Positions 1 to 53,709 of a stretch of 64,000 nt of DNA are shown in pieces. Each line of letters starts with the position of its first letter. Position 1 is the stretch's first letter. Made by a program: the position numbers and the translations under genes. Source of the stretch: Patella caerulea. Taxonomy: Eukaryota. The stretch spans positions 353,610 through 417,609 of the forward strand of contig JAZGQO010000009.1 of the NCBI GenBank assembly GCA_036850965.1, given 5' to 3'. The notes beneath the pieces were generated by a model. The model made no database searches and was not told where the DNA came from. It was given only the letters and a program-made list of their open reading frames with translations.

Positions 1-2125
1 ATGGACATTAACAAAATGTTTATCTGCGATAGATCAAATATGCAATAGCAAAAATTGATTAAAGAGAGATAGGACGTTGACCACACTTCATTTCCAAGCC
101 ATTGCTATGAATCTGAACATTAATTGTAAAACAATTGGTAAAGAATACACGGACTTTGAACCCCAATTCATTTCTAGGACAAAGCTGGACCAAAACAATC
201 CCGTACATTTTATTACCAATTAGGACGAAATCAAAGACAAAATTGACAAGTCCAGATGACAGAACAACAATTGGCGAAGACTAACACGATAAAACCACCT
301 GCAATGCCAGCTTATTAGATATATTCCCATGAACAATGGATTGAATAATGTATTATTTATAGCACTCTAAAATCTCTCATGCAGCTTTCATTTCTCAATA
401 ACTCACTTTCTTTCCTCGATAACTTATTCATAAAGAAAATATTTCTTCCTGCCAAGAGTGTTTTAGAATATAATTACCACAATAATTAGCCATATAATGA
501 ATCTAATTTAGTATTAATGGGATCTGTAGGATAAATGGCATATGTATATTTTATGAATGTCCTTGGGTGAAATTCTTTCAGCTTGAGCAGAGTTTTTTTG
601 GTCTGGAAATTAATAGAATTAGACGAAGTAGGCGAGAACAAACAGCAGATATCCTGGACATAATAACTGTCTAATTCACATGGATATTTGAACTTTCAAT
701 ATTTTATGCTGTTCAATTTTGATTCAAAGGGTTTTTTCTTCACATTTTTCAGTACTAGACCCTATACTTGACCCTTGTGGGCACCACGACACGTCTGTAT
801 ACGATTCTGGTACTTATACCGTAGAGGATATAATACGTCACAGTCTTGTTTTGTATAAATCAGAATTTTTTTGATTGTGAGATTAAGGTTGACAACAACA
901 AAACAAAACATTAGTTGACTTACATGTAGAACAGCATAACATTATACAGGTTGCCAGTACTCTTCTAATCTTCGTCACTGGTAGACCTTTCATTGACATC
1001 AATAGTATCATATTACATTTCCCAGAAGGCCTAATACTCTGTAATCGGGTTTTTAGCGACATAATCATCAGCCATTATAACAGTACATGAAGCAGTGTAA
1101 TAGCTCTCCCGGGAAATATCGTGTTTTACTTCGGCTACACAACTCTCTCAAAACATATCATTTAATAAAGAGCCTTGCAGTGTTTAACGTCAAGGCTACC
1201 ATTTTGTAACTTTAATTCGCCGTAATATAAGATCTCGCGTGTATTATTATGTATCGTTAAAGAACTAGGTCCGATCGAAATTACGCAATTTATCATAATA
1301 TATTTGTGACACGAAGCAACGTGTGTTTTATCATAGTTATTATCGACAAAAATTATAGGTTCAATGAAATTAATTGGTTCAACGTCTAAATTTTCTGAAC
1401 AAACTGGGCTAATGCCGCGCGCTGGTGAGGTAAACTAGTGGGGACGGACATGTTGCCCGCACATCGGCGCCACGGTCTACTCTTATATCGAATTCAATGA
1501 AATTAGGTTTCACGGCAGTATCATATTATATCTAACTTCGGCTTTATGACGTCATTGGAACTACTTTTAAGTTCCGGATTAAAAATGTTGGCGCCCATGA
1601 AGACGCCTTTGAAGAATGTTTAACTCAAGACACTGTATATTTATATGTACTTTCAAGTATGAAATGAAAACTCTCACACTCTTCAAGCGACGCCATTTTG
1701 AGCGGCAATTTCCTAATAAGTAAATCGGAAGCCACTATACAATTGTATGGGTTTAGCTACTGCCACACAGTCGATGCTATGTAGTCTACACGGCTAACCT
1801 TCTGAACAAGCTGTGCCAATGCAGCGTGATTTGGGGAAATTTTTCCACGGTCTACATTTTTTTTACAAAACGGTGGTTCACTCTTTTTTTAACGTTAAAT
1901 ACAGACATTATCTGAATTAATGCTTCTATCACCAAGCGAGCAATCTGTTTCAGAGAGAATTACTTACGAATTATATCTGTAACAGATGATTGTCCACCAC
2001 AACCCGTGCGTTAACTGCACGCGGCGGTAGTCATTGGCTCAACGGCTCGTGCAATGTTTACTTAACACCTAACTGCCTCGGGCAAAATGATGCATTTTAC
2101 TCATTTTAATACCCATTTACACTAA

Positions 2126-5095: not shown

Positions 5096-5109
5096 GGGTG
5101 GGGATGGAA
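5096..5109 (+). promoter_or_regulatory. polypurine tract (plus-strand primer) GGGTGGGGATGGAA abutting 3' LTR
   Basis: Purine run immediately 5' of the LTR TG; the equivalent GGTGATGAAGGAA is present in the large element. Confidence 0.6.
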
Positions 5110-5556
5110 TGTGACAAAGTGATCTCTACATCATATTGAAATATAAATATACAGATAGAACTTTCTGACCTCTGCTGATTTTTGATCATTAATGATATTG
5201 ACGTGTTCAACTCGACACAACTTCTTCAAGGCACGGACTTAATAAAACATCTAATGTGTTCAATATGTTATTTACGGACTACACACGAATGGCCTCTGCT
5301 CGTTTTAACAAAAGGCACGATCTCATTAAATATGCAGTGCAGTTACAGATACTATAATCTCATAAATAAACAATGCCAAATATGTACATCGCTTGTGTAT
5401 CACTTTTCTTAATTAATTGTATGCTTTATAAGCCAGAGTTAACTGTTAGTTTCAGAAGACTTGGAATGGCGCTCCTCCTGGAGTATGCCTATTTCATGCT
5501 CTCAATAAAGGTCTATCAACTATGCTGATATTCTGTTATCTGTATATAGTGTTACA
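5110..5556 (+). repeat. 3' LTR (447 bp), identical to 2126-2572
   Basis: Exact sequence repeat; directly preceded by a polypurine tract. Confidence 0.9.
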
Positions 5557-6890: not shown

Positions 6891-7779
6891 TTAAAGGGTA
6901 CAACAAAGTGTGATATAATTTTCCCTGAGCAGTAGTATTTCTGCCCCCATACGTACCAGTTAAAATGACCGTATATCACAGGATCCACGGTGGTTAATTG
7001 GGTAAGACACTGGCTCGCCTGCCCAACGGCCATGAAGGATCCACTAGCTGTTGGAATTAGATATCAGAGAAGGCCTTAGCGTCGCTGTCCGAGCAAAATT
7101 TCCCAGTAGCACACTGTATGGTGTATGCCCGTCTTCTTTAGCGTAGCCAGAGCAGTAGGCTGTTTAAAAACTCAATTTCATTTCATTTTGGTATATGACC
7201 GACTAAAAGACCCAATAAAATATCGACAATGACAGGAAGAATATTGTGCTTTTCTTCAAAAGTTACCGTGACTTTGTTAATACGGTGTACAAACTTGTAC
7301 AAGTGCATATTGTAGAGTTGTAACTGATAGAACTGGGCTGAAATACGATGGAAACATTGTAAATAACCACCTTTGTGGTTATAAATGTTCGTTTCATATA
7401 ATTATTTGTCTAGAATTTGGGTTGTCTAAAGCCATTAATCCCAAGCTTTCTGTATTAGGTCTTATTATTTATTATACGTGGTCTGGGCATAATTTCTTGG
7501 TTGAAGACACGCAATGGAATTGTCGCACATCCTAAATAACGTCATGCTTTAATACATCAACCGAGATCATGAGGACATGCCCTTGTCATACGCTGTGGTA
7601 TCTGGGGGTGGTGGTGGGGTGCAGACAACTTTCATTCATTCCAACTGCCAAGGATTCTCTTACATTGGAAAATTTCAACAGCTCATTCAAAGTGTAATTT
7701 GATATTTTTTAAATATTATAATAGTTTTCATTATTATAATAGTAGCATCTCTATTAGATGAACGCCAATATAGGGACTC

Positions 7780-11120: not shown

Positions 11121-14100
11121 ATGCCAGTGCCAATTCCAACTCTCTAAAATCTGTCAAATAGAAGGGCAAATTGTCCATACCTAGTGAGTTTTGAGTTTTT
11201 TTTATATAGAGTATCGATTTAGTAGAGAGCACAGTCGACAGTAAATTGTAGTTTACATAAAATAATAACAGGCAGAGAAAGGGCTCTTCTTGTCCTTTGT
11301 AAGTGAATCGATCGAGTGTCTGATACAATAAAGAAGTAATCTGCCAGAAAATGTGAACAGAATTTAAATATTCGATGTGTCTTACAAAACAACTATTGCC
11401 TATTCTTAGACGTCGATTTGACAGATTCTAACAGATTCAGTTAACAAAACGGTGTCTGAAACATTTCAATGCATTTTTACCCACTCATAATTTTTCTGTA
11501 GCCGAAATCGACCAGACGTACATCGCTTTTGATCCAAAACAGCACTCACTATTGAAATAATTTCCTGAAGTTGAAGGGTATTTTATTTATCAGATTAAAT
11601 GTATAGACTGGGGATTTTTTATATTTTATTATTTTCAGTTATTATTGTTAGCGATATAGGTCTGTATTGATATTAGGGTCGGCTGACTTAAAAAATTAAG
11701 AGCGTTTACTTTATTGGAATTCAAATGGATGGAGTTTAATGTTTTACTTTTCTGAGACGGGCATACAGGAGGAAATTTTGCAAGCAGAACGGGGTCACCG
11801 CCTACCCTCATTTCGACTTTAAACGTGCTATCAATGGTATACAGAACCGTGTTATTTCATCCCACCCGATGATTTCATGCTTTTTCCGTTCCCCCTCCCT
11901 ACTTCTTCCTGACAAAGAGAACCCACACTAATAAATTCCATGACTTCCTCGTTAGCGCCCACTCCAAACGCACTTTGATATTTGAATATAATTTAAACAT
12001 ACATTACGCAAGAGTTAAATCTGCCTATTGCAAGTCTTTCTTTAGGCCTGAAATTATTAATTAGACATTAATTAACTTATCCTGGTCATAATCAACTTTC
12101 GATAGCATCAGATTTCTCCGATATTAAATAGATTGGAACATCTCAGCCGTATTTTGATTTAAGCTAAAAGTGGAAGGGCCAGATTTAGCTTCGAACAACC
12201 AGTACCGTGGTTGAAATTATTGCACACGCCATGTCAAACCTTCAACGACTAATATTTTGAGTAATTTGAATGAAATTTTCAAATCATTCATTTTTCATTA
12301 TCTTGTTTTCGAACTATTATAACAAGAATGGCTAGCTCTTTATCTAAATCTTACATAATGGATCTTTAAGTTGTAATCTTTAAACAATATTGTACAGCTA
12401 TAATCATTGTATTCATTGAGGAGCTAACCGGTAAAAAATTACAGCAAGTCAATTAATAACACCTACATGTTATAGTTCTTAATGCATTTTCTGTGTTTTT
12501 AGTAAATATAATGAATGTAAGGAAACTATCCATCAGACTGTTACTACAAATAGCCTAATGCTCGCACATATATACATACAGACACACGTACATTTGTGGA
12601 CAATGACAGTCAGTCAAAAGGCTTCCTGTTTCCTTTCAATTGTCTCTGGAAATAATTTAATGACCTTCACATAACCCCAGTGTTTCTCCAATAGTTTGGA
12701 AAACGGTCGCTGTACGTTTTCAATAATAATTATCGTATGGCTTCTTAAAACAACGTGGACCGGAAGTAGAATCATTAGAAAAATGTCGGGTTAATCACAT
12801 ATTAATCACATATTAGAAGTAACATCTACCTGCTTTTGATTTATTGTTTACTGTTATTGTTTTTTAGGATACAAATTTTGCCAGAAAAATCCTAATGGCG
12901 AGAGCCTCCAACCGCGGCCATTTTGTTACTCACTACCCAATCTGTAAGTAAGTTTAACCGATCACCATTAGAAATGAAATGAAATAAAATGGGATTTAAC
13001 GTCCTACTGTTATGCTCCTTAACTGGGTTAATGAAGACGGATATACACCATACAGTGTGCTATGAAGGAAAGTTTGCATGGACAACAGCGCTACATTCTA
13101 CTCTCATATCGGATTTCAACTGCATATGATATAGTGGGACAGATAATGGGAACTGTGTAAGAATCTGTAATTGCATAGCAGGGCAAAACAGCCATCGAGA
13201 CTATATACGTGACTCTGGGCGCCAATAAATCGGTTCATGTATAATCTCACACTAATCCATTCATTTTAAGAGTCCTCTGAATTTTTTCAAAGATTGACTT
13301 AAAGATAACCTGGGTCTAATACAGGAGATTGTATTACTTCATAAATCAATCACAATAGGTCGATAACATCCATTTTCTATCATATTTAATTCCATGATAG
13401 GCAGTAATTTAGTTTCTAACAGTTGATTACTGGCATTTTTTTATTATTCTTCCTCATCCGTCTTCACCTCCAATCTGATGGCAGTCACATTAGGTCTATA
13501 CCAATATGAAAGATAATGTTATTGGGGGCGACCCATTCACTATGAAACGGCTATATTCTGTCATGTCAATGGCACAAAATCAATACATGCCTGTCACTTT
13601 CCTTCTTTATTCAGCTTACATGGTACCACTATATTACATTTATTATACATTCAGTATTCACGTATCTTTTTCTAAGACCTACTCTGTTGGTGAATGTGAC
13701 ACTATTGATCCGATGCATTTAAAATATTCTTATGAATCGTTTAACTTTCAAGCATTTTTAAATCTCACTGGTCTAATCTGGCATTGTTCCAGAATGGTGT
13801 CGAGTATAAGTCGTCAGCACAATATTTAGATCTTTAAAGACTACTAAGCGTTTATTTTATTCATTCATGGTGCAGTGTTGAGGGAGGGGGAAATTTAACT
13901 CATATAGCGGCTAAAAACTATAATAGGTTATTTTACGTGCGCAGAATTAGTAGGACGAGGTGGAATGAAAAAGCCAGAGATTTTCCCCAATCAACGCCGG
14001 TATTCGAGCCCGATATACTCTAGCCGGAAATTAAGATCCTTTGTGAAATGAAACGAAATGGGGTTTAACGTCATATTGTTCTGCTCCGAGCTGGGTTAAT

Positions 14101-14859
14101 AAGAAGGGCATACGCTATAGGGTATTTTGGTTCCACGAAAGGTGTTCAGTTTATTATAGAAATTCTTTACCTTCATGACGTGTGACGAAAACTAGAGTAA
14201 AGAGGTAGCTTGCATCATTCTACTACTATCTTGGCCTAACTCACAGACAGTTATGTCAGTATCCATTTCTGGAAAGTAGGGTACTATCATCCAGTCATCT
14301 CGTGCACGGATTAGTACAATTAAATAGAATAAGGATGATATAAAACGGCGCCTATATTAAATACTTACCCCAAAATTGGCCCGACCTAAATAGATGACGC
14401 AATGTACTTTTTATAGGAGAGAGCTGGGTTGATTTACCTCAGACATCATAGAGGGTCCGAGAGAGGAGCATCATAGCCTCCTGGGCTTAAGGGGCTAGAG
14501 TGAACGCATTATCCTAGCGCGGACATTATGTAGAACCATCAACATTAAACTCACACCATGGATATTTAAATAACGACTAAAGTAACTACCATATATATTG
14601 TAGTTTTCTGTATGTAACCTTGGTATTTGCTGTATTCGATTCATAAACACAGTAACAACATAAACGGTGTCCCAGAGTCAGTTACTTGAAGATTGGAATA
14701 ATTGATATCACAACGTGAAGTCGAAGAAAGGTCTAGACGTCACAGTCACGTCAGACACCGTAGTGTCATATGTGCTATGTGACAAAGTAATTTATACATA
14801 GAACTTTGCTAGATTTGACATTATATTATATTGGACGTTTTCAACTATATACAACTTCT

Positions 14860-18568: not shown

Positions 18569-21500
18569 TAAAAGTCTGCGAGAAATAATTCCTTAAAGTA
18601 ATCAGCTTTAAGAGCAAGCTCATTTTGTTTACCTTTTTAAGTAATAAGGGATTAACCAACACATGGGTCGTGTTTATATGTGTCTGGGGCATCCAATAAA
18701 TTGCAAAACCGACTCAACAATAAACTGGCTTAAATCATACGATTTTAAAAAAACCACACATTTTACGTTGAAGAATTAAACTAAAGTCTTAAATGTTTAT
18801 GGGCACTTTATTACAGCTGTTAAAATTTGAGGAATTATAAAAATGGTATTGGGGTTTTTATGTCAGGATCAGAAAGTAATCACGATTCCCGAGACGGTCC
18901 TTCACGTGATAATGTAATACGTTATTTTATAGTGAGGCATTTTGAAAGTGATTTAGATAGATATAACTTTTTAACAGCAACATGAGTGATTAATATAAAA
19001 TATGATATACTGCCAGTTGTAACAATAGTTCTCATGGGTCATTCTGATCCAGACGAAATGATCTTTTCTATTTTTATTTGTAAGTGTCAAATGACACAAA
19101 AGCCCATTAAAAAATGTATTTACGTCTGATACTGATACATAGTGAACTGACATGAAATGGGGATTAACGTCTTACCTTTCTGCACCCATCAGGGATAACA
19201 AAACAGAAACGTCCATCTGTGTGTTACGAGGAATTTTTTCCCCAGGCAGCGGCACTTTTGTCTACTCTTATATCCCATTCCACCTGTCAAAGGATCTTTA
19301 ACGTGAACGCTAATGTCCACACGGGACCTCGGGGTTTTCGCCCCCCCCCCACGTCCTGCACCACTGACAAGGTGAAATCGCGCCTGAAAATCCCAATGGA
19401 TTTTCTCAGCTAATGCAGGGATCCACATAGCCACCTCGGAACCTAGCCCGGATAACAAAGACGGACATATGCTACGCAGTGTGGAATCAGAAAATGTTTG
19501 CCTAGACAGGTTTTTGTTTACATATACACCATCCTGTACATGGCGCTCGATTCTTAGTCTAATCCAAACGACATTTCCACCATACATTCTCGACCAGAGA
19601 GACCTGGTTTTCGAGATATTACTTACTCATCGAGTCACCACGACTCCCCTGGTGCGTTGTGTAACCACTATAATAAACATGTCTGTGTTTGCGTGTGTGG
19701 GAGAGACACAATAACTACATTTAAGAGCGCACTTACCAACCCGGAAGCAATAACAGACAACGAAGTAAGGTATCCAGGCATAAAATAATGGGTTCATTTC
19801 GTGCAGAAGTATCAAATATTGTGGGTGGGGGGGGGTAACTAAAGATTGGTTAAAAATGAAATTGGGTTTAACGTCCTATATTTCTGCTAATGAATGCAAT
19901 GTGCTGTCGGGGAACTCGTACCCGGGTAGCCACGTTCCTGTCCACTCTTCGCCTAGTTCCAGCTCTCACGTCAAAACTGAGCTACCCTTTCCTCTAAAGT
20001 TATTCAAATGGATGATACAAATGTCACACTGGGCGATTGGCAGTAGAATGTTTAAAATTCTGTGGACACCAACCTATTTTCAGAAATTCCAAAACAGAAA
20101 AGGATGATTCTGTATTGAATTTGCTCCTTAGCTACTGCTACTACCTGGTGTTTATCGTCTGCTTCCACAGAAGTGATATCGCATTTATCGTAACGATGTT
20201 CTTATGCTCTAATGTCATTATAGACAGACCATACTTTTCCAGTTAGAGTGGTTGTCCCTGTCTTATCCCTAGACGGTTGTCATATTAAATTGATTCTATT
20301 AAACAGGAGTCCGGTAATTTAATTGTTGATAACAAAGTGTTCAGTACTTTATTTGAAGTGAGATATTCTACATGTACACCTCAACAAATTATTGGATGTC
20401 ACTGGCCTACGTCATCTGAGAAAACTGATAATTGAATTAGATTAGCCAACAGTAGCATCTAATGGACTAACAGCCCTTGTTGAGTTCTTAATAGATACTC
20501 GGTCTCACTAATCACCATTCAGAACAGACAAGAGCAATGTTTTGTTTAGCCAGTATTGCTAGACCGAAAAGAAACGAAACATATTTATTTCAGATAAGTC
20601 AAACATCTTAAAGATTCCATAAATGTGACCAAAGACAGTCAAGGAACTATATGGCATAGATATGCATATTCTACACATCATATCCAATTTATAAATGACT
20701 TCATAAGAAAAATCTGATACAATTAGGGATACCTCAAATCTTGCAAAATTTGACCGATAAGGAAATATGATATATCATGTATACATATCGTATATAAAAT
20801 TATTTGTACTTCAAGTTGTGAACTAAGCAACATGAAGGAATCGTAACTTACACTGGATAAACCTAGAGACAATAATAAATGTGTGAAAGATAGATAAGCT
20901 TATTTAACTCATGCTATGTAATTCACGCCATTAAACATTATGGAATACAACAATGTACACTGGAAGAACTATTACATGACTGTACAGACAATCATGTGGT
21001 GCAAAAAAATCGGTCAGACGAATAGAATATTTGTAACATATTTTTCCTTCTCGGTCCCATTTTTTCGGTGGTTAGTGTATATAATAATATACAGAATATC
21101 CTACGAGTTTTGGGGGTTTTATTTGATATCAAAAAAATTGAGTTGGAGATTTTATTTATCGCCCAACCCTTTCTTACATGCAGGAATAAATAAATATAAT
21201 TCTTTGGTATAGATTTCACTTTTACTGAACTGATTACATTACAGTGTAGTGACACATCATTTTTTCGACATCAGTTTACCTATTGCAAAATCCTACATAT
21301 TGACCCAGTACTGTATTTCCTTCATGGGCAATTAACAGTTTCTTTTTAACAAGAAAAGAAGTTACTTTTTATTTAAAATAAGTGATTTCTTTAAACTAAA
21401 AGAAAGTAGTTCCTTTTTGATTGACCAATCACATTCAGGTAAATTAGATTATGTAATTTATCACACAAGGGATATCTACTATCAAATGTGTTATTGGGTG

Positions 21501-23109: not shown

Positions 23110-23590
23110 CGATCGGCCAATAGTTTCAGTTGAATAAAATGTAATGGAGTTTTACGTCATACCCTTCATATGTTTTTATTTGTGGGGTTTTCGTCTGCTC
23201 TGAAAAGTAAAGGACTGGTCCTAGCCAGAGCTTTAAAAGGAAACCTAAAAGGGAAAAACACGAGATTGTCCATAAGAATTTTCCAGGAACCGGGCCCCCT
23301 GGATAATGAGCTGGCGGCCTAGTCGTTGGGTCATCGTGGTTTCCAGAAATTTCCAATATCATTAAATGGACGATCTCTTTAGGTTTCTGAATTGTATAAT
23401 TAAAACTCACTTGCAATCAACAGATACTCTTAGATTTCTCCTTTGATTCCACTATAACAGACTCTTTGGATATACCATTTATTGAACGAGAAAAAACATT
23501 TATTTTAGAAATTGGCAATAAAGCTCTATTGTATTTTTATTTTATTCAAAGTGATTCAAACTTGTCTATTCCAGAAAGATTAGAGATTTT
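23110..23590 (-). repeat. about 480-bp SINE-like dispersed repeat (family C) ending ...ATGAAGGGTATGACGTAAAACTCCATTACATTTT; inverted copy at 38930-39400
   Basis: ORFs 23126-23416(-) and 39167-39430(+) translate to near-identical peptides (ISGNHDDPTTRPPAHYPG versus IPGNHENPTSRPPAHYPG). Aligned at DNA level in opposite orientation. Confidence 0.55.
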
Positions 23591-25630: not shown

Positions 25631-26159
25631 TTTCAGAAAAATAACCAAGAATATCAAAGTTCTATATTTGAATTTAAAAAAAGGAGTTAATAAACTAATG
25701 TGCTGAATATAGCCGAGTGGGGTGATTCTAGATTTCATTTGATCTCATTTTTAAGAATTTATATCGTATTTGGACGCATCAAACACCCTAAGAAAATAAC
25801 ACTACTATAGCGTATTATACACTTAGAGATGCCAAAAAATTTCAATATATTCGTCACTGGTATTCAATCTGTTTTCATAGCGATGTTGTTATATGTACTG
25901 TAAATGGAATTAAAAAGTTGCACTATCAGTTCAAAACGGACATAATCAAAGAAAACTGAACACAGGGGAAATCAAAAGGTTTTTTTTTAGAAGAAAGATT
26001 CCATGTTTTCAGGAAGTATATTATCAAGACAAAAGGCTATAACCTTTGATTGATGGTTCTGTAGCTGATTGAAACCTCCCAAGAGGTTAAAGAATTTCAG
26101 AACTTGCTTTAAAATTCACGTTTTTGTTTTGTTTTTTTCTTGTTTTGCAGTTGCATGAA

Positions 26160-26795
26160 CTGGGGGCTTAACGTCCTACTTTGCGGCACCAATTTGGAAG
26201 CGGGTGCGCGAATAGAGTTTAACGTCCTTTAAGCACACACCAGGTCATTTCGAGGAGAAAACCGGTGGACCAAGGGGAACCCAGGGGGCTGGACAGGTGA
26301 CCATATGTACAAGGTGGTAATCTAAACCAGGCCACTTGACCTCAAGAGCAGACATGACGATCTTCAGTGCACGTGGTAAGCCATTCAGCCACCTAAGCCC
26401 CTAAGGCCATTTGGGTAATGAAGACTGCGGGCATACGTCATGATATGAATTGAATTTTGCCTACTTTACGTGTGGACCCCCAACAACTTATATTCTAGAT
26501 TCCGTTTGGCTAGTGGTCTAGAGTGCCGCGCTTCGACCTCTAGCTGGCCGGTCACCTCTGGCTTGCGGCTGTGGTTTCGAGCCCTGGTGTGAGCGTATGT
26601 GGCATGGAGATAGGGGCGCCTTCTCAACCTAGTAGGTTTCCTCCGGGTACTCCGATTTCCTACCACTGCTAAAGACCCCTACGCGCAAGCGAATTACTGA
26701 AATAAAATTAAACCATATGTTAGTCCCGAAATGACTTAGTTTGTGTTGAGTGGACGTTAAACCCCATTTCTCTCTCTCTCTCTCCATTTGCCTTG
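26160..26795 (+). mobile_element. composite element: family B 5' terminus (GGGGCTTAACGTCCTAC..., 26160), internal insertions, then a family A SINE (26505-26795) providing the matching inverted terminus
   Basis: 26160 GGGGGCTTAACGTCCTAC versus 26750 GTGGACGTTAAACCCC. Also shares GGTAATGAAGAC.GCGGGCATACGTCATGA with the 50887 element. Confidence 0.45.
26505..26795 (+). repeat. tRNA-derived SINE (family A): tRNA-like head with A and B boxes, then a body ending GAGTGGACGTTAAACCCCATTTC + (TC)n
   Basis: Head GGCTAGTGGTCTAGAGTGCCGCGCTTCGACCTCTAGCTGGCCGGTCACCTCTGGCTTGCGGCTGTGGTTTCGAGCCC (B-box GGTTTCGAGCC). Other copies at 32553-32830, 34043-34285(-), 46005-46265, 44693-44930, 43690-43865 and 40425-40700. 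Confidence 0.7.
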
Positions 26796-31400: not shown

Positions 31401-32552
31401 CGCTAGAAATTTGCATTCGATTGAGACTACTGACTTATTTCGCTGAACATAACTTTGAAATAAGAGTAAAAACGGAAACCATTGAATTTAAATCAGTTTA
31501 TATACATTCATGTTACATTATTATATGCGTTGCGACTCTCTTATGTCAATTTGTAGGTCCCAAATCAAATGTTAGCGATTTAGCTCCTTTAAACTAATCG
31601 CAATTTTGAAAAATAATTAATGACACTTAACAGGAACAGGATAATGAAAGGACGGAGAAGCCAGGGAATTTTTTTATCCGTTGTGATTGTCATAATATAG
31701 ACCTCGACAATATTTACTTATTAGGCCTATACATGTATTAATTTTTCACTTACCTGTGTTATGTATAATACGGTATCAATAATTATATTATAAATGTGTG
31801 AGAGAGAGAAATGGGGTTTAACGTCCACTCGACACAAACTAGGTCATTTCGTATGGAAGGGTATCGCTGCCAATATTAAATGCTCTGCTAAAATGTCTTT
31901 TCCATTGATTATATGTAAAAAGTACAATGTACAAAGTCACAATACCGGTAATGATAAAGTCAAAATACCTCTAAGGACAAAGTTAAATGTAAAACGACAA
32001 AGTAATGTGTCAAATGACAAATGTTTTAATGCAGAATGCTGTTCTTTGACATTTCTACATTTTACATTTCTCTCATAACAAATCACATTTGCGCTCTGCA
32101 ACATCTCATTTGTCATTCACGCTTTCTTTTCATCAACTTGCGCATAGCATCTTCTTAAATATCCAAATATAGTATGCCACGTGACTTATTAACATATATA
32201 CGGAAACATCCGATCTTTCTTGAAATAAGAATATGAATTATTTCTCCCAGTTAACGTGCTGCCATTCTTCAGTTGACTTCATGCCATTCATGGGTTCTTT
32301 AGCTAACAATTGAGTTGACCTCAGTTGTTTGTCCCGTACTAGGAGAAACCTTCTCGGCCAATACAGGTCGAGCCGTAAGCCCAAATGGTTTCATGCGTGT
32401 AGAATCTCTTATCATTATTCCACTTTCTAATATTTTGTTTTCGTAAGATTATATAAAATGAAGGAGGTCAAAGACAAAATATAGTACTGCGGCTGTGCCA
32501 CTATGGACATACAGATCATATATATTCATACATTTATAATGGGGGGGGGGGT

Positions 32553-32830
32553 GGAATGGCCTAGTGGTCTAGAGTGCCGCGCTTCGACCTCTAGCTTGCC
32601 GGTCACCTATGGCTTGCGGCTGTGGTTTCGATCCCTGGTGTGAGCGTATGTGGCATGGAGATAGGGCGCCTTCTCAACCTCGTGGGTTTCCTCCGGGCAC
32701 TCCGGTTTCCTTCCACTGCTAAAGACCCCTACGCGCATGCGAATTATTGAAATAAAAATAAAACATGTTAGTCCCGAAATGACCTAGTTTGTGTCGAGTG
32801 GACGTTAAACCCCATTTCTCTCTCTCACAC
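32553..32830 (+). repeat. SINE family A copy (complete), at the centre of the 30574-34990 duplication block
   Basis: Same head, body and tail as 26505-26795; preceded by a G11 tract. Confidence 0.7.
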
Positions 32831-34042
32831 ATTTATAATATAATTATTGATACCGTATTATACATAACACAGGTAAGTGAAAAATTAATACATGTATAGG
32901 CCTAATAAGTAAATATTGTCGAGGTCTATATTATGACAATCACAACGGATAAAAAAATTCCCTGGCTTCTCCGTCCTTTCATTATCCTGTTCCTGTTAAG
33001 TGTCATTAATTATTTTTCAAAATTGCGATTAGTTTAAAGGAGCTAAATCGCTAACATTTGATTTGGGACCTACAAATTGACATAAGAGAGTCGCAACGCA
33101 TATAATAATGTAACATGAATGTATATAAACTGATTTAAATTCAATGGTTTCCGTTTTTACTCTTATTTCAAAGTTATGTTCAGCGAAATAAGTCAGTAGT
33201 CTCAATCGAATGCAAATTTCTAGCGTCTGGTTATTCCAGTCTACACACGCCGTTTGATTTGTTTCTAGCCTCTTTCCTCGAACTTGGTTTGAAACGCTTT
33301 ATTGTATACGATTCGTGTACCAATGGTAAAATTTGTATTGTGTCTTAAATATTGGATATCAGAAGTCCATCTTTTTCCGGTAAGATCACGGCCATGAATT
33401 GTTGATTTAAATTGACAAATAATTCGTGTTTTCGATGTTGAAGATTTTGGATGACATTGAGTTAGAGACTTAGCTACTTTAAACCTTTCACAAACATCAA
33501 TAAATGTTTACTAATTCGGGGAGGAAATTGGTCAGGATGCTCATATTTTTAGATTCAACAAAAAGTTATATTTTCCTTTTACCAGCACAAACATATATAA
33601 ATAATTTAAAAAGAAAAACAACTAATGGCGCGTTAACTGAGATATCTTTCCTTTGGAACAATTATTCATATTTTTATTTAAAGAAAGATCGGTCTTTTCC
33701 GTATTTATGTTAATAAGTCACGTGGCATACTATATTTGGATATTTAAGAAGATGCTATGCGCAAGTTGATAAAAAGAAAGCGTGAATGACAAATGAGATG
33801 TGGCAGAGCGCAAATGTGATTTGTAATGAGAAAAATGTAAAATGTAGAAATGTCTAAGAACAGCATTTTGCATTAAAACATTTGTCATTTGACACATTAC
33901 ATTTTGTCGTTTCACATTTAACTTTGGCTTTAGAGGTATTTTGACTTTATCATTACGGGGTTAGTGACTTTGTACATTGTACTTTTTACATATAATCAAC
34001 GGAAAAGACATTTTAGCATAGCATTTAATATTGGCAGCGATA

Positions 34043-34285
34043 CCCTTCCATAATTTCGGGACTAACATGTTTTATTTTTATTTCAATAATTCGCATGCGC
34101 GTAGGGGTCTTTAGCAGTGGAAGGAAACCGGAGTGCCCGGAGGAAACCCACGAGGTTGAGAAGGCGCCCTATCTCCATGCCACATACGCTCACACCAGGG
34201 ATCGAAACCACAGCCGCAAGCCATAGGTGACCGGCAAGCTAGAGGTCGAAGCGCGGCACTCTAGACCACTAGGCCATTCCACCCC
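34043..34285 (-). repeat. SINE family A copy, tail-truncated at the duplication junction
   Basis: Reverse complement of 32553-32775; followed by a C11 tract. Confidence 0.65.
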
Positions 34286-37084: not shown

Positions 37085-38760
37085 TCGCCCCTGTCTGTGT
37101 GTGAGTGTGTGTGTGTATGTATGTATGTGTGTGTGTGTGTGTGTCTGTGGTTCGCCTACAGGGCGCAATTCTTCATGGATTTTCTTCAAACTTGGTATAC
37201 TTATTCCTTATACCCCAAGGAAGATCCCTATTGTTTTTGGGGCATGCCCGACCCCCAGGGGCCGAGCCACGCCCATTTCTAGTATTTGTTTGTTTGTCGT
37301 CTACAGGCCACATTTCTTAACTTATAATCTTGAAACTTTGCATACACATTCTTTGTACCCTAAGGAACATCCCTATCGTTTGGGGTGTATGCCCCACCCC
37401 CAGGGGCAGAGCCACGCCCATTTTCTTTTCGTGTGTCTTTGTGTCGCCTACAGGGCGCAATTCTTACTGGATTTTCTTCAAACTTGGTATACGTATTCTT
37501 TATACCCTAAGGAAGATCTCTATTGTTTTTGGTGCATGCCCGACCCCCAGGGACAGAGCCACGCCCATTTCTAGTATGTATTTGTTTGTCGTCTACAGGC
37601 CACATTTCTTAACTTATAATTTTGAAACTTAGCATACACATTCTTTGTACCCTAAGGAATATCCCTATCATTTGGGGTGCATGCCCAACCCCCTGGGGCA
37701 GAGCAACACCCATTTTCTTATCGTGTGTCTTTGTGTCGCCTACAGGCCACAATTCTTATTGGATTTTCTTTAAAACTTTGTATACTTACTCTTTATACTC
37801 TAAGGATGATCCCTATCGTTTGGGGTGCATGCCCAACCCCCCAGGGGCAGAGCCACGCCCATTTTCTTTTTGTGTGTCTCTGTGTCGCCTAGAAGCCGCA
37901 ATTCTAACTGTATTTTCTTAAAACTTTGTATACTTACCCTAAGGATGATCCGTATTGTTTTTTGGTGCATGCCCGACCCCCAATGGCAGAGCCACGCCCA
38001 TTCCTTGTATTTATTTGTTTGTCGTCTACAAGCCACATTTCTTAACGTATCATCTTGAAACTTTGAATGATTATTCTTTGTACCCTAAGGAACATTTCTA
38101 TCATTTGGGGTGCATGCCCAACCCCCAGGGGCAGAGTCACGCCCATTTTCTTTTTGTGTGTCGCCTACAGGCCATAATTCTTAATCGGTCATCTTGAAAC
38201 TTAAAATACTTATTCCTTATACCCTAAGGATGACCCCTTTTGTTTTGGGTGCATGCCCGACCCCCATGGGACAGCAACACCCATTTCGTGTATTTGTTTG
38301 TCTGTCGTCTACAGGCTGCATAAAGATGACCCCTATTGTTTTTGGTGATTTCCTAACCCCCAGGGGCAGAGTCATGCCCATTTTTACTTCGTGTCTATGT
38401 GTGTTGTCTACAGGCCACGATTCTTAATGGATCGTCTTTAAACTTGGGATATGTATTCCATATAGCCTAAGGACGTCAACTGCATGTCCCGACTCACACA
38501 GGCAAGACACGACCAATTTTTATGTTTGTCGTTTACAGGCCGCAATTCTGAATGAATCAGCTTGGTACTTTGTTTATGTATTCCTTATAGCCTGAGGGCG
38601 TCCACTATTGATTTTGATGAATGTCCCGACCCCCAGGGACAGAGCCACGCCCACTTTTTGCCTTTAGTATTAGGAAGGCACAATTCTGAATGGATTATCT
38701 TGGTATAGTTATTCCTTATACTCTAAGGACGGCAACTATTAATGTTGGTGCACGACCCTC
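37085..38760. repeat. satellite, about 146-bp monomer in two alternating subvariants (about 292-bp higher-order unit), about 11 monomers, with a (GT)n microsatellite at 37090-37150 at its 5' edge
   Basis: Recurrent ...GTCGCCTACAGGGCGCAATTCTTA.TGGATTTTCTTCAAACTTGGTATAC.TATTC.TTATACCC.AAGGAAGATC.CTATTGTTTTTGG.GCATGCCCGACCCCCAGGG.CAGAGCCACGCCCATTT. ORFs in all frames here (37068-38427) are repeat artefacts. Confidence 0.9.
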
Positions 38761-38929: not shown

Positions 38930-39400
38930 ATAAAATGTAATATTTACTCTCTAATCTTTCTGGAATAGACAAGTTTGAATCGTTTGAAAAAAATAAAAAT
39001 ACAATAGAGCTTATTGCCAATTTCTAAAATAAATGTTACAGATTTTCTTTTCTCGTTCAATAAATGGTATAGTGGAATCAAAAAAGTAATCTAAGAGTAT
39101 CTGTTGATGCAAGTAAGTTTTAATTATACTATTTAGAAACGTAAAGAGATCGTCTATTTAAAAAGATTGGAAATTCCTGGAAACCACGAGAACCCAACGA
39201 GTAGGCCGCCTGCTCATTATCCAGGGTCCAGTTTCTGGAAAATTCTTAAGCACGTTCTCGGTTATTTTCTTTTAAAGCTCTGGCTAGAGCCAGTGCGTTA
39301 TTGTTCAGAACTGACGAGAGCCCCACAAATAAAAACAGATGAAGGGTATGACGTAAAACTCCATTTCATTTTATTCAACTCAAACTTTTGGCCGATGAGT
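38930..39400 (+). repeat. family C SINE-like repeat, + orientation copy
   Basis: Reverse-complement match to 23110-23590. A related 5' portion is duplicated at 39600-39700. Confidence 0.55.
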
Positions 39401-45490: not shown

Positions 45491-46004
45491 AGACTCTTTA
45501 GGCCGTGTGCTGGATGAGATTTTGTTTGAAGCTACATTGTATGCAAAAGCCAGCCAGATTGATTGCCTGAAAATCGAAATGCATTTTTAAGTTTTTAAAA
45601 TAATTATTCTTAATACATTTAGTGAAATGAGTTGTACATAGGCTAAGCCAGTTTCTCAAGCCCGGGAGCTTAATAAACTACTCTACCATAAAAATGTTGT
45701 TTACGTCAAATATCTTGCTTTTTATTTGAATGGAGATTTCAAGGCTAAATGGGTGCAATGGGAGATTATCCCCTGTTTGAATTACAACCAGTGTTGGGAT
45801 TGTAATCAGGTACAATGATAGACATAAGAGGATACTTGTTTCCCATAAAAATAATTTTGACAGATTTTCTTGCGTGAACAGAACGTGTAAAATATATTTG
45901 TTTTCGAGGAACAGTGTCTAGTTCGGATGGAACGAGAAATCTGGGTGTCGTGTACAATTGAATTGTATATCGGTGAAAGAACCAGGCGGGATTCAATGGG
46001 GTTG

Positions 46005-46265
46005 GGATGGCCTAGTGGTCTAGAGTGCCGCGCTTCGACCTCTAGCTGGCCGGTCATCTCTGGCTTGCGGCTATGGTTTCGAGCCCAGGTGTGAGCGTAT
46101 GTGGCATGGAGATAGGGGCTCCCTCTCAACCTCGTGGGTTTCCTCCAGGCACTCCGGTTTCCTCCACAGCAAAGACCCCTGCGCGTGCGCTAAGATAATG
46201 GAAATAGAAAAAATAAGACTTGTCTGCGATATCACCTTCGGTGGAAGCGGACGTTAAACACCAAG
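46005..46265 (+). repeat. SINE family A copy with variant 3' region (GCGGACGTTAAACACC + (CAA)n)
   Basis: Head GGATGGCCTAGTGGTCTAGAGTGCCGCGCTTCGACCTCTAGCTGGCCGGTCATCTCTGGCTTGCGGCTATGGTTTCGAGCCC. Confidence 0.65.
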
Positions 46266-49200: not shown

Positions 49201-50886
49201 ACAAACCGTCCTTATTTAGTAAATAAAGAATTACTGAAAATCTAACCTGGCATAACATATTATTATATTTACTATATCGACATGTCTCAACAGTGAAAAT
49301 ACCCCACGGTGCGTCCTGTAGGTGAGCTGGAAGTCCGGGATACTAATATAATTCTTGGGTTGAAATCTATACAAAACCTATGTTGTTGACGTTTAAAGGG
49401 TATGACTCTAGTTTGATTAGATATTACAAATTGAACGACATTCGTTTACGACTGCTTATATAGTATAGTCCATTCTGCATTTTGTCGTTTATGAATCAGC
49501 CATTACTTATTACTTCCGCGTTTTCGTGTAGGGTGTGTTTGTCTTTGTGAAATACAAATGGCGCCCGAACCATAGAATGCACGACTCGTATACTGATTTT
49601 AGAGTATTTTTTGTGTTTTGAATAATTATTTTATATTGGGATCCATATTTTCATGGCAAGATAACGGCGTCAATATTGATTAAATGGACCAATACTGGAT
49701 AATAATTCGTGTTTTTAATTTGGAATAATTATGGAACAAAATCTAGTCAATTACAAATAGCTACAAATCGATTATTATACATTCATACAAGGGAGAAAAA
49801 CATTAATTTCATAAAACAACATAATACAACATGACACAATAGATACAAATTATTAAGAAGCTTACATTATGTTTTAAGTAGATTAGGTTTAGACGTACTA
49901 GACACTGAAAAAATTAATGGCCAAGAGTAATCTTTAATTAAGATATTGAGATAAGCTGAAACAATTTCTGGAAATCTGAAATAAAATATTATAAAATAAG
50001 TTTATCTAAAATATTTAAGTGAACAAAGAATATGTCATTTAGTAACCGTATCCAAAACTTAGAGTTTAACGTCCACTTGGACTAGGCTATTTTCGGGAAG
50101 AAGGTATGGTTTCATTCTATTTTAAAATTCGCCAGCACGTGTGGGTCATTTGCAGTTGGAGGAAAACGGGGGATGGACATTTTTCCATCCTACTCGTTGT
50201 CACATACATGGGGATAATCGAAACCAGACCTTATGATGTAAAGCGCTTGCGTTAAACCATCCGTCCTTACAGACCTATTCATCATGTCAAAATTCTCTTT
50301 ATATTAACAGCGCGATTGTTTCCACTAATGGTCGTAGCCAAGCTATCGAATTTAAACTATATTAATCACGCACGTTAAAGGGGGTTATATATATATGTTT
50401 TATGCCGTACATTACGGGCTCAGTATCCGCGCCTCTCTACTCTATATATCGGTATGATCGTACGTCAATAAACGTCCCATCAAACTGGAATGAACACGGT
50501 CTTTTACTTAAATATCACATCTTTAATGGACAGAAAACGATCAATGTAGACACTTGAATTAGGTATCTTAGTTTTCCTGAAAGTCCCATGTTCGACATCC
50601 TAATTACACAGAAGTGGAAGTCGATGCCAAGTGGAAGTCGTAATTTTGGTCACTCTGGTGTCTGGCTTCGATTTTTTAATTACTTAAATTGTTCTGTATA
50701 TTAGTTAATTACGTAGTACCAAGTTTAGGTATTTAGGTCAACCATTTCATTGAAAGTTCTTTGTCTGGACCGTTAGATGAGCTGCAGCTCATCTTATAGA
50801 TTTTGATGGTCATGTTTGAAAAATGCATTTCAATCGATAGATATGTATTAAGGATGTCAACCATCGATGAAATATAATTAATGGCA

Positions 50887-51315
50887 TGGGGTTCAACGTC
50901 CTATTTAACGACCTGGCTAATGAAGACGGGCATACGTCATGAAATTTGCTATGAGGGGAGAGCGACATTACCGCCTATTGTTCATCAAGTTGCAACTTTT
51001 AATGGTTCTCTTCGGAAAAGGGAATCACGGTGGAGGTCGGGCGTTCGATTCCTGCACTGGCCGAGAAATTTCATCCAGATTTTCCAGCGTGGTTCTCCCT
51101 TGTCAGTGATGCAGGACGGAGGGCCTTACAAGGACCCGTTTACACATTAGCATGCACGTAAAAGATCCCTTGAGTGTTGGAATTCGATATAAGAGTAGAC
51201 CGTAGTGCCGCTGTCCGGGCAAAATTTCCCTCATTTCCCCCTATGGCGTATGCCCGTCTGCACTAGCCCAGTTCGAAGCAAAACTGTAGGACGTTAATCC
51301 CCATTCCATTTCCAT
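50887..51315. mobile_element. TIR-bounded about 430-bp element (family B) with internal tRNA-like B-box; termini GGGGTT(C/T)AACGTCCTA...GCTAATGAAGACGGGCATACG and CGTATGCCCGTCTGC...GTAGGACGTTAATCCCC + (ATTTC)n
   Basis: About 55-bp imperfect TIRs at both ends. Interior has GAGGTCGGGCGTTCGATTCCTG (T-arm-like). The TIR core is the reverse complement of the family A SINE tail. Fragments of the same family at 12961-13110, 14041-14160, 19141-19230, 55085-55210, 7040-7150 and 1395-1490(-). Confidence 0.55.
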
Positions 51316-53709
51316 TTATTAGGTACAGGCCCTATTGTACCTATTTTTTTTGCCCAATCCGTAGAACTAGACAATGATTTTTGCCAAACCTTCCGTCCTA
51401 CACTACCGGAAAATCTTGACATACTTTCTCGCCTGACACATGAATCGAATTCTGGGATTTTTTTTGTTAATGAGATACGAAAGTACCCGCTGCGCCACCG
51501 TGACTCCCAGGGAAACATGCCTTTAAAGATATCTCACTACGTGTTTCCATCATTTACTGTTTTTATCATTTACTATCGTGACATAACGCTTAATATAGCC
51601 ATTTATATCCTTGTTCACCTACCTCGGGTGGCCATTACAATTTCCCCAATCCAATTTAACGAAAAACGAAAGCTGTACTTTTATTTAAATATGTAACATC
51701 GTTACTTAACACGAATAACGGCTGTGATGCTCTAGATTCTATGATTAAATACGTAATATAATTGTCTGGACATTCCCTGATAGCGCTAGTGAAGATAAGT
51801 AGTGTTAGATAATTCATATTATCATTCGGCTATATTGTATTGCATTTGTAATGAACATTATTAACAATATATAACTGAAAACCAGGTTAATGCCATGATA
51901 TATTTCTCCTTGGTTCCTGGTTCATGGATTATAATTAAATGATGAAGTTGGATTTTATATAATATACGCTGTTCTTTGCAGTTTCTTGTCCAACACCGAA
52001 TGAGTCGTATACATACCAGCGGTGTTTTCCTAAATTAAAAAGAAGGCACAGTTCCCTACTTTAGAGCGCCGTCCACGAGCGCCATGTGCGCTCACCACAG
52101 CCACAGGGTAAGAGGGGGATACGGACGGAATCCTCCCCCAGGCAATTTTGAAAAATCAATGCCATTTGGTGAATTCACACGTATTTATCTTTGGTAAAAA
52201 AAAAAGTTTATTATCTCAAAAAAAGCCATTTTCTTAGTGGTAGGCTTTCCGTTCATTGCAGTGGAATACGAGATCAAAATTAACTAGTCAACACCCGTCC
52301 ACCGATCGGAACAGATGACCAACCGCACAAACTGTGATAAAAAAAAAGACCTGACCATTTAAGAATGGTGAAGCATTATTAGTATACAAATTATAAATGA
52401 TATGAAAATACCGAGCATACTCGTAACTCGGCCCTACCCTCAAAAACAACCCCGAATCATACATATATTTTATGGTAATACCATCGTGGATTTGTTACCG
52501 CTTTTTCAGCAAATCAAAAACCTTATTTACCTTAGGTCATATCAGCCATATTGGAATAGTGACGGTTTTTATCCACTCGGCAAACCTCGTAAGATTTCGG
52601 AATCTAAACTCGGCTGTACGATGAATTCCGCCATATTGGAACTACTTTAAAGGTCCCGGATGAAACATGGCTGCGCCCATTCCAAACACAAGTTGGCGAC
52701 CTATTTGGCTAGCGACCTATTCGACCGATCCAGCTGTAAGATAATGACGAAATTACACTTCTATTCTGAGCTGAAGGAATGGATAAAAAATAATATATTC
52801 TACTTTCATTTGATAGACATAACGTTGGATTTTATTGGTTGATAAATAGAGACTGTTGTCTTTACTCTAAATAGGATAGGTTTCGAACGAACAGGTTGCA
52901 GCTCGATCGGTCGAATAGGTCGCTAGCCGAATAGGTTCCCAATTTGTGTAATAGCGTCAAGTTTTCCTGTTAAAGTAAACCGGTAGCCGCATCGCAAATG
53001 TATGGGCGTAGGTACATATCACTTACTGTCATACATCCGAGACTAGATGTAGTCTACGTAGTTTACGGAATCTGTCGAGATTAGCCGAGTGGGTTTTTAT
53101 CCTTTTGAAAGTCCTTCAATCGGTGTACATTTGTCAAAAGAATCACAATGTCAGGTCCCATGGCAACGGTACTCGAAGTAGCGGGGTCTTGGGTTTCGCC
53201 CCACGAAGAATAAAAGAGATTGACAAGAGTATGGAACCACTTCCTGATTTAAAAATTAACCTGTCTTTAAAGATCATCATGAAGAACTCATTACGGAGGG
53301 ATACAGATTTTGGTAGTAATTGTTCTTAGGTTTAACATTGAGTTGTAATGTTTCCTTAACGGACTTTGGTTTCTGGAGAAAATAGCTTTTGGTTAATCTA
53401 CACTTCAACATAATAAGTGTTGTCGGGATTACAAGAGAATGATAGAATCGGTAAATAGTAATAACCACTTACTAAGCACGACGAGCAAGAAGATTTCTTG
53501 AGTGTCAGATTATGGACATGTTTACGTGGACGAGTTTATTAGCGCAAATATGACAGTACGTATGTATGTTACACGTTGACGTTAACTATTTCCCTTGAAT
53601 CAAAAATGTTATTAAACAATTTGGAGTTTATATTATAATTTATAATCGGTGCCATCTCGTGCTTTTATTCCTTCTTATTCCAATTACACATCTTCTTGAT
53701 TTGTATTAT

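What the first reader, a model, noticed from the sequence alone, without database searches (positions are those of the whole stretch)
50887..51315. TIR-bounded, tRNA-like elements whose termini are the reverse complement of a SINE family's conserved 3' tail
Family A SINEs (tRNA-like head) end in GAGTGGACGTTAAACCCCATTTC(TC)n. A second abundant family starts with (GAAAT)n GGGGTTTAACGTCCTAC..GCTAATGAAGACGGGCATACG and ends with the inverse, CGTATGCCCGTCT...GTAGGACGTTAA(A/T)CCCC(ATTTC)n. These are about 55-bp terminal inverted repeats enclosing a tRNA-like B-box. The composite at 26160-26795 combines a family B 5' terminus with a full family A SINE as its 3' end. The family C repeat (23110-23590 and 38930-39400) also ends in a diverged form of this tail, GACGTAAAACTCC. 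Several distinct non-autonomous families therefore share one terminal module in both orientations. This is unusual for pol III SINEs, which normally lack TIRs. It suggests either a MITE/SINE hybrid or a shared recognition module for an unidentified autonomous partner (a LINE tail or a transposase binding site).
Basis: seen in the sequence. Interest (0 to 1): 0.6.

Follow-up and report, generated by a model that had tools for sequence, protein, structure and literature searches.

The report
Limpet SINEs sharing a LINE-type tail
The apparent terminal inverted repeats are two separate copies of ordinary short retroposons (SINEs) lying head-to-head in a limpet genome; many SINE families there share one 3' tail, which is the usual sign of a common LINE partner and not of a new transposon type.

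Summary
The window comes from the limpet Patella caerulea: a Gypsy pol ORF is 100% identical to a P. caerulea protein. The motif GACGTTAAACCCC is real and strongly enriched, with 15 hits against 0.05 expected. It ends at least six different SINE-like families, followed by (ATTTC)n or (TC)n.

The inverted repeat at 50887-51315 also exists. It is not the terminus of a TIR-bounded family. The left arm (50880-50996, minus strand) is a complete copy of a ~140-nt 3' module that recurs alone elsewhere in the window. About 21 nt to its right, a separate ~295-bp SINE starts at 51020.

- The two arms are 69% identical, no closer to each other than to unrelated copies (66-78%).
- The other long copies lack an inverted arm. 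B7 has none, and B19 is preceded by a tail in direct orientation.
- Most "(GAAAT)nGGGG..." starts are simply minus-strand copies.
- Target-site duplications, where readable, vary in length as in retroposons (11, 8-9 and 7 bp).
- Copies of this tail family cluster: 5 abutting pairs against 0.43 expected, in all orientations. Only the head-to-head pairs look like TIRs.

Shared LINE-derived tails and mosaic SINEs are already documented in molluscs. Verdict: ordinary, low interest. The partner LINE was not found.

The parts
50880..50996 (-). 'Left arm' (arm50). A separate copy of the ~140-nt B-type 3' module, GTTGGAATTCGATATAAGAG...GTAGGACGTTAAACCCC, with a decayed microsatellite at its left edge.
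   Evidence: It aligns to the whole module, not just 55 bp. It is 69% identical to the B51 module, no closer than to unrelated copies. Candidate own TSD TTAATGG at 50878 and 50999 (p~0.1).
50997..51017 (.). Spacer of about 21 nt between the arm and the SINE head. It matches neither element.
   Evidence: Sequence reading. The SINE 5' end was placed by comparison with the heads of B7, E and the SINE at 19651.
51018..51315 (+). B51, a ~295-bp B-type SINE. It has a short tRNA-derived head (GGGAATCACGGTGG...CGTTCGATTCC) and a core shared with B19, B55 and E. Its 3' module is 51176-51303 and its tail repeat ATTCCATTTCCATTT.
   Evidence: (module 89.6% identical to the consensus).
51316..51508 (-). 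SINE 'E' on the opposite strand, abutting the tail of B51. Its head is GGGAGTCACGGTGGCGCAGCGG and it shares the core with B. Its 3' boundary is uncertain.
   Evidence: (I1).
26155..26503 (-). arm26, an old minus-strand B module interrupted by a nested SINE.
   Evidence: 53-64% identical to other copies.
26198..26406 (-). Nested SINE 'D' with tail GGACGTTAAACTC, flanked by the TSD CCAATTTGG / CCATTTGG.
26504..26785 (+). A26, a family A SINE with tail GAGTGGACGTTAAACCCCATTTC(TC)n. It lacks about 10-20 nt at its 5' end.
   Evidence: (93.7% identical to A32).
32541..32828 (+). A32, a full family A SINE. It has an A box TGGCCTAGTGG and a B-box-like GGTTTCGAGCC. It is flanked by a perfect 11-bp TSD, ACATTTATAAT, at 32530-32540 and 32829-32839.
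   Evidence: p<0.0002.
45998..46263 (+). A46, a family A SINE with a variant tail, GACGTTAAACACC.
19144..19446 (-). B19, the second long B-type SINE. It has no inverted arm.
19447..19651 (-). Another SINE, with head GGGGAGTCGTGGTG. Its B-type tail is cut off exactly where B19 begins, so the two elements lie in direct orientation.
   Evidence: module positions 36-95 at 19450-19509.
6978..7190 (+). B7, a B-type SINE with a different body. It has no inverted arm. Candidate 7-bp TSD ATGACCG.
   Evidence: p~0.06.
12976..13120 (-). B12, a stand-alone ~140-nt B module with a (ATTTY)n tail.
1363..1495 (-). B1, a stand-alone module directly preceded by a tail-like remnant (1496-1514).
14045..14125 (-). 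B14, a 5'-truncated B tail.
55094..55350 (-). B55, another SINE subfamily with the shared core and tail.
19854..19990 (-). A short SINE of ~135 bp, with head GGGTAGCTCAGTT and the same tail.
23140..23340 (-). Family C SINE-like copy with the diverged tail GACGTAAAACTCC. Its partner copy lies at about 39160-39375 (+). Both sit inside a larger ~800-bp repeat.
50061..50290 (-). An A-related SINE with a different tRNA-like head and tail GGACGTTAAACTCT.

Best explanation
The region is a cluster of LINE-dependent, tRNA-derived SINEs in the Patella caerulea genome. Many SINE families with different heads and bodies have acquired the same 3' tail, ...GGACGTTAAACCCCATTTC plus a short tandem repeat. This tail is most likely copied from the 3' end of one still unidentified LINE. 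That LINE's reverse transcriptase would recognise the tail and insert the RNAs by target-primed reverse transcription.

The 'TIR-bounded element' at 50887-51315 is two such insertions in opposite orientation:
- an older ~115-nt copy of the 3' module on the minus strand;
- about 21 nt further on, a ~295-bp SINE on the plus strand.

Their tails therefore point outward and mimic terminal inverted repeats. The composite at 26155-26785 arose the same way: an old minus-strand module with a nested SINE, then a young family A SINE.

Shown here: the anatomy, the lack of TIRs in other copies, variable TSDs, 5' truncation and non-random clustering.
Inferred: a LINE as the source of the tail, and a preference for inserting next to older copies.
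For: - Tail enrichment and variety of bearers.
- The arm equals the whole 3' module, which also occurs alone with the same 5' boundary (B12, B1, arm50, arm26).
- The arms are 69% identical. B51 is closer to B12, B14, B7 and B1 (74-78%), and arm50 is equally close to B14 and B55 (70-71%).
- Other long copies lack the inverted arm. B19 has a direct upstream tail and B7 has none.
- No second copy of the interior or junction in that arrangement.
- Retroposon-type TSDs of different lengths: A32 11 bp (p<0.0002), D 8-9 bp, B7 7 bp.
- The two parts of the 26155-26785 composite differ in age. A26 is 93.7% identical to A32, whereas arm26 is 53-64% identical to its relatives and carries a nested insertion.
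- Abutting pairs occur in all orientations (2 direct, 2 head-to-head, 1 tail-to-tail). There are 5 against 0.43 expected, P~5e-5.
- A homologous tail occurs in an unrelated animal-derived metagenome contig, with a different terminal repeat (AATC)n.
- The literature documents shared LINE-derived tails across SINE superfamilies, and SINE arrays with truncated tails, in molluscs: PMC4758252, PMC11481361.
Against: - No LINE carrying this tail was found. The window has no LINE ORF of at least 110 aa. The ORFs of at least 55 aa listed were only scanned by eye and never run against Pfam, so shorter LINE remnants are not excluded. No further Patella sequence could be retrieved.
- TSDs for arm50, B51, arm26 and A26 are weak or unreadable (p 0.04-0.9). 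Independent insertion at these two loci is therefore inferred, not proven.
- Two head-to-head junctions within 0-21 nt in 64 kb is more than random placement predicts, so some coupling mechanism is not excluded.
- The tails show no significant RNA stem-loop (z-scores -0.2 to +1.1).
- The sample is small: one window with about 30 copies, whose boundaries I annotated by hand.
Confidence: 0.8

Rival explanations
1. Single-event head-to-head chimera. At one staggered break both DNA ends prime reverse transcription on the tails of two different RNAs, a two-template variant of twin priming. The two cDNAs are then joined in the middle, with both tails facing outward.
For: There are two head-to-head junctions only 0-21 nt apart. 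In both, the inner end of the inverted piece falls at the same module position. Weak similarity flanks the whole 26158-26785 composite (p~0.04).
Against: - The shared inner end is simply the normal 5' end of the stand-alone module, as in B12 and B1.
- A26 is young and arm26 is old and carries a nested SINE.
- arm50 has a candidate TSD of its own inside the composite.
- No convincing TSD flanks the 50863-51315 composite (p~0.4-0.6).
- Abutting pairs occur equally in direct and tail-to-tail orientation.
- Classical twin priming (Ostertag and Kazazian 2001, from my own knowledge) inverts the upstream part of the same RNA, not a second tail.
Confidence: 0.1
2. A genuine TIR-bounded non-autonomous DNA transposon (a MITE/SINE hybrid), moved by a transposase that binds the GGGGTTTAACGTCC termini.
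For: Inverted arms exist at 50887-51315. A Tc1/mariner remnant lies in the window at 55799-56461.
Against: - Only one locus has both arms, and its interior is not repeated in that arrangement.
- The arms are no more alike than random family members.
- All other bearers of the terminus carry it at one end only. They show 5' truncation, terminal microsatellites and TSDs of 7-11 bp of differing length.
- The Tc1 remnant is not associated with the motif.
Confidence: 0.04
3. A local inverted duplication. The left arm would be a copy of B51's own 3' end made by a DNA rearrangement, like the perfect inverted duplications at 30.5-35 kb.
For: The window does contain large inverted duplications at 100% identity that include a family A tail.
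Against: arm50 is only 69% identical to B51's module and is equally or more similar to other copies. It carries different indels. The 30.5-35 kb duplications are kilobase blocks that include flanking DNA, unlike this case.
Confidence: 0.03

Closest known systems
Mosaic ('jigsaw') tRNA-derived SINEs of molluscs with LINE-derived tails shared across families (Matetovici et al. 2016, PMC4758252; Mob DNA 2024, PMC11481361)
   Same: - A tRNA-related head with pol III box motifs, exchangeable body or core modules, and one tail shared by several families.
- A terminal microsatellite, variable TSDs and 5' truncation.
- Arrays in which one SINE with a truncated tail is followed directly by another SINE, as at 19144-19651.
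   Different: - These are Patella caerulea families. I found no description of them, and the motif is not in the searchable literature.
- The partner LINE and its clade are unknown.
- The core domain shared by B, E and B55 was not matched to a named domain (Nin-DC, Deu, V, Meta, MESC).
Stringent-type LINE/SINE pairs such as eel UnaL2/UnaSINE1 (Kajikawa and Okada 2002, from my own knowledge; also PMC4176376 for zebrafish L2)
   Same: A conserved 3' tail of about 20-60 nt followed by short tandem repeats, (ATTTC)n here and (TGTAA)n there. Several non-autonomous elements share it.
   Different: No LINE with this tail has been identified. No significant conserved stem-loop was detected in the tails.
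MITEs and foldback DNA transposons
   Same: One locus shows inverted termini around a short non-coding interior.
   Different: The termini are not a feature of the family. There is no fixed TSD and no transposase partner. The termini behave as retroposon 3' ends everywhere else.
L1 twin-priming inversions (Ostertag and Kazazian 2001, from my own knowledge)
   Same: An inverted segment joined to the 5' side of a retroposed copy.
   Different: In twin priming the inverted segment is an upstream part of the same RNA. Here it is a second complete 3' module with its own tail, and the two parts appear to differ in age.

Membership tests
LINE-dependent tRNA-derived SINE | Head related to a tRNA, with internal pol III A and B boxes | tested here: inconclusive
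   Family A has TGGCCTAGTGG, an exact match to TRGCNNAGTGG, and GGTTTCGAGCC. B51 has CGTTCGATTCC but no clear A box, whereas E has TGGCGCAGCGG. ARAGORN and Rfam report no tRNA, even at E<=10.
LINE-dependent tRNA-derived SINE | Target-site duplications of variable length flanking individual copies | tested here: met
   A32 has a perfect 11-bp TSD (p<0.0002). D has 8-9 bp and B7 has 7 bp. Older copies are unreadable.
LINE-dependent tRNA-derived SINE | Copies with a complete 3' end and variable 5' truncation, ending in a simple repeat | tested here: met
   Tail-containing fragments of 32-145 nt occur beside copies of 270-300 bp. The ends are (ATTTC)n or (TC)n.
LINE-dependent tRNA-derived SINE | 3' tail homologous to the 3' end of an autonomous LINE in the same genome | not testable with these tools
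   The window has no LINE ORF of at least 110 aa; shorter ORFs were only scanned by eye. No further Patella DNA could be retrieved. Collection scans gave only tails, not LINEs.
MITE / TIR DNA transposon | Terminal inverted repeats present at both ends of the family's copies | tested here: not met
   One of at least three long copies shows the arrangement. B19 and B7 lack it, and no minus-strand tail other than 50888 and 26163 has a plus-strand partner.
MITE / TIR DNA transposon | Fixed-length TSD flanking the whole element | tested here: inconclusive
   No significant TSD flanks 50863-51315 (p 0.4-0.6). The elements are old, so absence of a TSD is weak evidence.
MITE / TIR DNA transposon | Termini shared with an autonomous transposase-encoding element | not tested
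   This needs the whole genome. The only transposase remnant in the window (Tc1-type HTH) is not linked to the motif.
Twin-priming inversion | The inverted 5' segment and the direct 3' segment derive from adjacent parts of one RNA and share one TSD | tested here: not met
   The inverted part is a second 3' module, not an upstream segment. No convincing shared TSD was found.

The most novel reading that the evidence does not exclude
The head-to-head composites (50880-51315 and 26155-26785) could be products of a single integration event. In this reading the reverse transcriptase of a tail-specific LINE starts on two tail-bearing RNAs, one from each side of a staggered break. That would yield retroposon pairs with outward-facing tails that look like TIR elements. 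It would be a two-template form of twin priming not described for tail-specific LINEs.
Probability: 0.08. Interest if true: 0.5.

Novelty: new member of a known kind. Interest (0 to 1): 0.15.

Why it matters
It matters little beyond annotation. The result gives Patella caerulea a set of mosaic SINE families and a ~140-nt stand-alone 3' module, all using one conserved tail (GGACGTTAAACCCCATTTC plus a microsatellite). A related tail occurs in at least one other animal-derived contig, which is a handle for finding the partner LINE.

It is also a caution for repeat annotation. Where retroposons with a shared tail cluster, opposite-strand neighbours can be mistaken for TIR transposons. The strong clustering of copies (5 abutting pairs against 0.43 expected) hints at an insertion preference for, or next to, older copies. 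That could be quantified genome-wide.

Tried and rejected
- **More Patella sequence.** The look-up of encoding contigs found nothing on record for the window's 647-aa ORF or for the two P. caerulea proteins P0011 and P0029. Three look-ups of the best Gypsy homologues (P0001, P0074, P0007) returned loci from other species that lack the tail.
- **Translated SINE core as a protein query**, to fish out spurious ORFs from other copies: no hits.
- **Collection scans with the 19-mer tail.** Viral contigs gave none. Metagenomes gave 4 hits, of which only L002 and L004 are homologous tails. Prokaryotic genomes gave 2 chance hits.
- **Literature search for the motif** found nothing relevant. Neither mollusc SINE paper has supplements held as text.
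- **RNA folding of six tails** showed no structure beyond shuffled controls. I therefore make no claim of a recognition stem-loop.
- **TSD tests, composite against separate elements**, were inconclusive for the old copies.
- **Pfam scan of all short ORFs for LINE remnants** was prepared but not run, because the input would have been very large. I only scanned the ORF list by eye, and no ORF of at least 110 aa looks LINE-like.
- **Ancient inverted duplication of B51's own tail** is rejected, because the arms are not each other's nearest relatives.

Full report
**Source and setting.** The window is AT-rich (33-44% GC) and full of eukaryotic repeats. Its largest ORF (61195-63996, minus strand) is a Gypsy-type pol with RVT_1, RNase H and integrase domains. 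Part of it is 100% identical to a protein annotated in Patella caerulea, SNE40_017230. I therefore treat the window as limpet genomic DNA.

**Checking the observation.** GACGTTAAACCCC (up to 1 mismatch) occurs 15 times against 0.05 expected. A diverged form adds further copies, including the two family C copies and two more SINEs. Reading 90 nt upstream of each hit and comparing them all-against-all separates two groups.
- Family A is ~270 bp with tail GAGTGGACGTTAAACCCCATTTC(TC)n. Full copies end at 26785, 32828 and 46263, and there are truncated copies at 31813, 43832 and 44886.
- A heterogeneous 'B' group ends in ...GGCGTATGCCCGTCTTCATTAGCC...GTAGGACGTTAAACCCC(ATTTC)n.

At 50887-51315 the inverted arms are real. 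They measure 24 and 26 nt at 88% complementarity, or 68 nt at 76%.

**What the arms are.** I aligned the 3' regions of all B-type copies with the reverse complement of the left arm. The arm matches a ~140-nt unit (GTTGGAATTCGATATAAGAG...GTAGGACGTTAAACCCC) over about 110 nt, not merely 55 nt. The same unit occurs on its own with the same 5' boundary at 12976-13120, at 1363-1495 and, interrupted, at 26155-26503. It also forms the 3' part of the long SINEs B51, B19 and B7. The left arm (50880-50996, minus strand) is therefore one more copy of this module.

The plus-strand SINE begins at about 51018-51020 with GGGAATCACGGTGG. That start is shared with the heads of B7, of SINE E and of the SINE at 19651. 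About 21 nt between arm and head belong to neither element.

**Tests of the TIR-family idea.**
1. Pairwise identities. arm50 against the B51 module is 69%. arm50 against B14, B55, B7 and B12 is 66-71%. B51 against B12, B14, B7 and B1 is 74-78%. The arms are ordinary family members, not partners.
2. Other long copies. B19 (19144-19446, minus) is preceded by the truncated tail of another SINE in direct orientation. B7 (6978-7190) has no upstream arm and has a candidate 7-bp TSD at its own ends.
3. The interior and junction of 50887-51315 are not repeated in that arrangement anywhere in the window.
4. Tail-family copies are strand-biased, 19 minus to 11 plus in my own manual annotation, which builds on the module search. 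That explains why a plus-strand reader saw many elements 'starting' with (GAAAT)nGGGGTTTAACGTCC.
5. A candidate TSD for the arm alone (TTAATGG at 50878 and 50999) lies inside the putative element. It is weak (p~0.1).

**The second composite.** 26155-26503 is a minus-strand module, 53-64% identical to its relatives. It is split by a nested SINE D (26198-26406) flanked by CCAATTTGG / CCATTTGG. The family A SINE that abuts it (26504-26785) is 93.7% identical to A32. An old, already disrupted module next to a young SINE argues for successive insertions.

**Mode of movement.**
- A32 has a perfect 11-bp TSD, ACATTTATAAT. The only two occurrences in the window are at 32530 and 32829 (p<0.0002).
- D has an 8-9-bp TSD and B7 a 7-bp one.
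- Fragments always keep the 3' end and lose variable amounts of the 5' end.
- The ends are microsatellites.

These are retroposon signatures, not those of cut-and-paste elements. A homologous tail (47 nt, 85% identity, ending in CCCCATTTC followed by (AATC)n) is present in an unrelated metagenome contig, and a weaker one in another. This is consistent with a conserved LINE 3' end. The other exact 19-mer hits, in prokaryotic contigs, are chance matches.

I could not identify the LINE. The window has no LINE ORF of at least 110 aa, and I only scanned the shorter ORFs by eye, so short remnants are not excluded. No more Patella DNA was obtainable. The tails do not fold better than shuffled sequence.

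**Why opposite-strand neighbours occur.** I annotated by hand about 30 tail-family pieces. Five neighbouring pairs lie within 30 nt of each other, against 0.43 expected under random placement (P~5e-5). Two pairs are direct (tail to head), two are head-to-head and one is tail-to-tail. Clustering is thus general and independent of orientation, and only the head-to-head pairs imitate TIRs.

A preference for inserting into or beside earlier copies is an inference. It would fit priming on tail-like microsatellites or re-use of duplicated target motifs. SINE arrays in which the first member has a truncated tail are reported in bivalves (PMC11481361).

**Comparison with what is known.** Shared LINE-derived tails and reciprocal exchange of heads, bodies and tails between SINE families are described for gastropods and bivalves (PMC4758252; PMC11481361). 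The Patella families appear to be undescribed members of that kind, and the motif is absent from the searchable literature.

They fail the defining test of MITEs, which is TIRs as a family feature. They also fail that of twin-priming inversions, which require an inverted upstream segment of the same RNA. A single-event origin using two templates cannot be excluded for the two head-to-head pairs. It is disfavoured by the age difference, by the internal candidate TSD and by the lack of a convincing outer TSD.

**Verdict.** This is an ordinary feature of a SINE-rich mollusc genome, and interest is low.

Noticed in passing
window 30545-34981: There are interleaved, perfectly identical inverted duplications. 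Block 30571-31851 is the reverse complement of 32775-34055, and block 31852-32780 is the reverse complement of 34053-34981. The pattern is X Y X' Y' at 100% identity, with the intact A32 SINE spanning the Y/X' junction. This is either a very recent palindromic rearrangement or an assembly artefact. It explains the 'extra' family A tails at 31813 and 34053.
   Followed up: partly
window 2124-5556: A young non-autonomous LTR element of ~3.4 kb. Its two 449-bp LTRs (2124-2572 and 5108-5556) are 100% identical. It has TG...CA-type ends, a likely 4-bp TSD (CTAA) and a purine-rich tract before the right LTR. The LTRs and the 3' interior are related to the Gypsy element at 57.4-64 kb.
   Followed up: partly
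window 57400-64000 (minus strand): A Gypsy-type retrotransposon. Downstream of pol it has a 647-aa ORF (58407-60350) with a signal-like N-terminus and a C-terminal membrane-like segment. This ORF has no Pfam hit. The ORFs at the same position in the homologous elements L005-L007 hit Baculo_F, so it may be a diverged env-like gene.
   Followed up: partly
window 14860-17800: A satellite of ~208-240-bp units whose arrays switch orientation near 16690, so the two halves are inverted relative to each other. Each unit contains a near-perfect 39-bp palindrome, AATATCGAAAAACGAGTAGCTCGTTTTTCGATATT.
   Followed up: no
window 37136-38750: A tandem repeat with 145/292-bp periodicity and 70-80% identity between units, preceded by a (TG)n tract. 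It produces a spurious 168-aa ORF.
   Followed up: no
window 55799-56461 (minus strand): A degenerate Tc1/mariner transposase remnant (HTH_Tnp_Tc3_2, E=1e-13). It lies close to the B55 SINE but is not linked to the tail motif.
   Followed up: partly
window, whole: Tail-family copies are strand-biased, 19 minus to 11 plus in my manual annotation (the module search is). This would fit a location inside a transcribed region or intron with orientation selection.
   Followed up: no
L004 897-1700: This metagenome contig carries the homologous tail. It also encodes low-complexity ORFs (MAALCSRCRHYIFVLRFLSF...) that, from memory, resemble a repeat seen in many animal assemblies. The contig is probably animal DNA in a metagenome, host unknown.
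   Followed up: no
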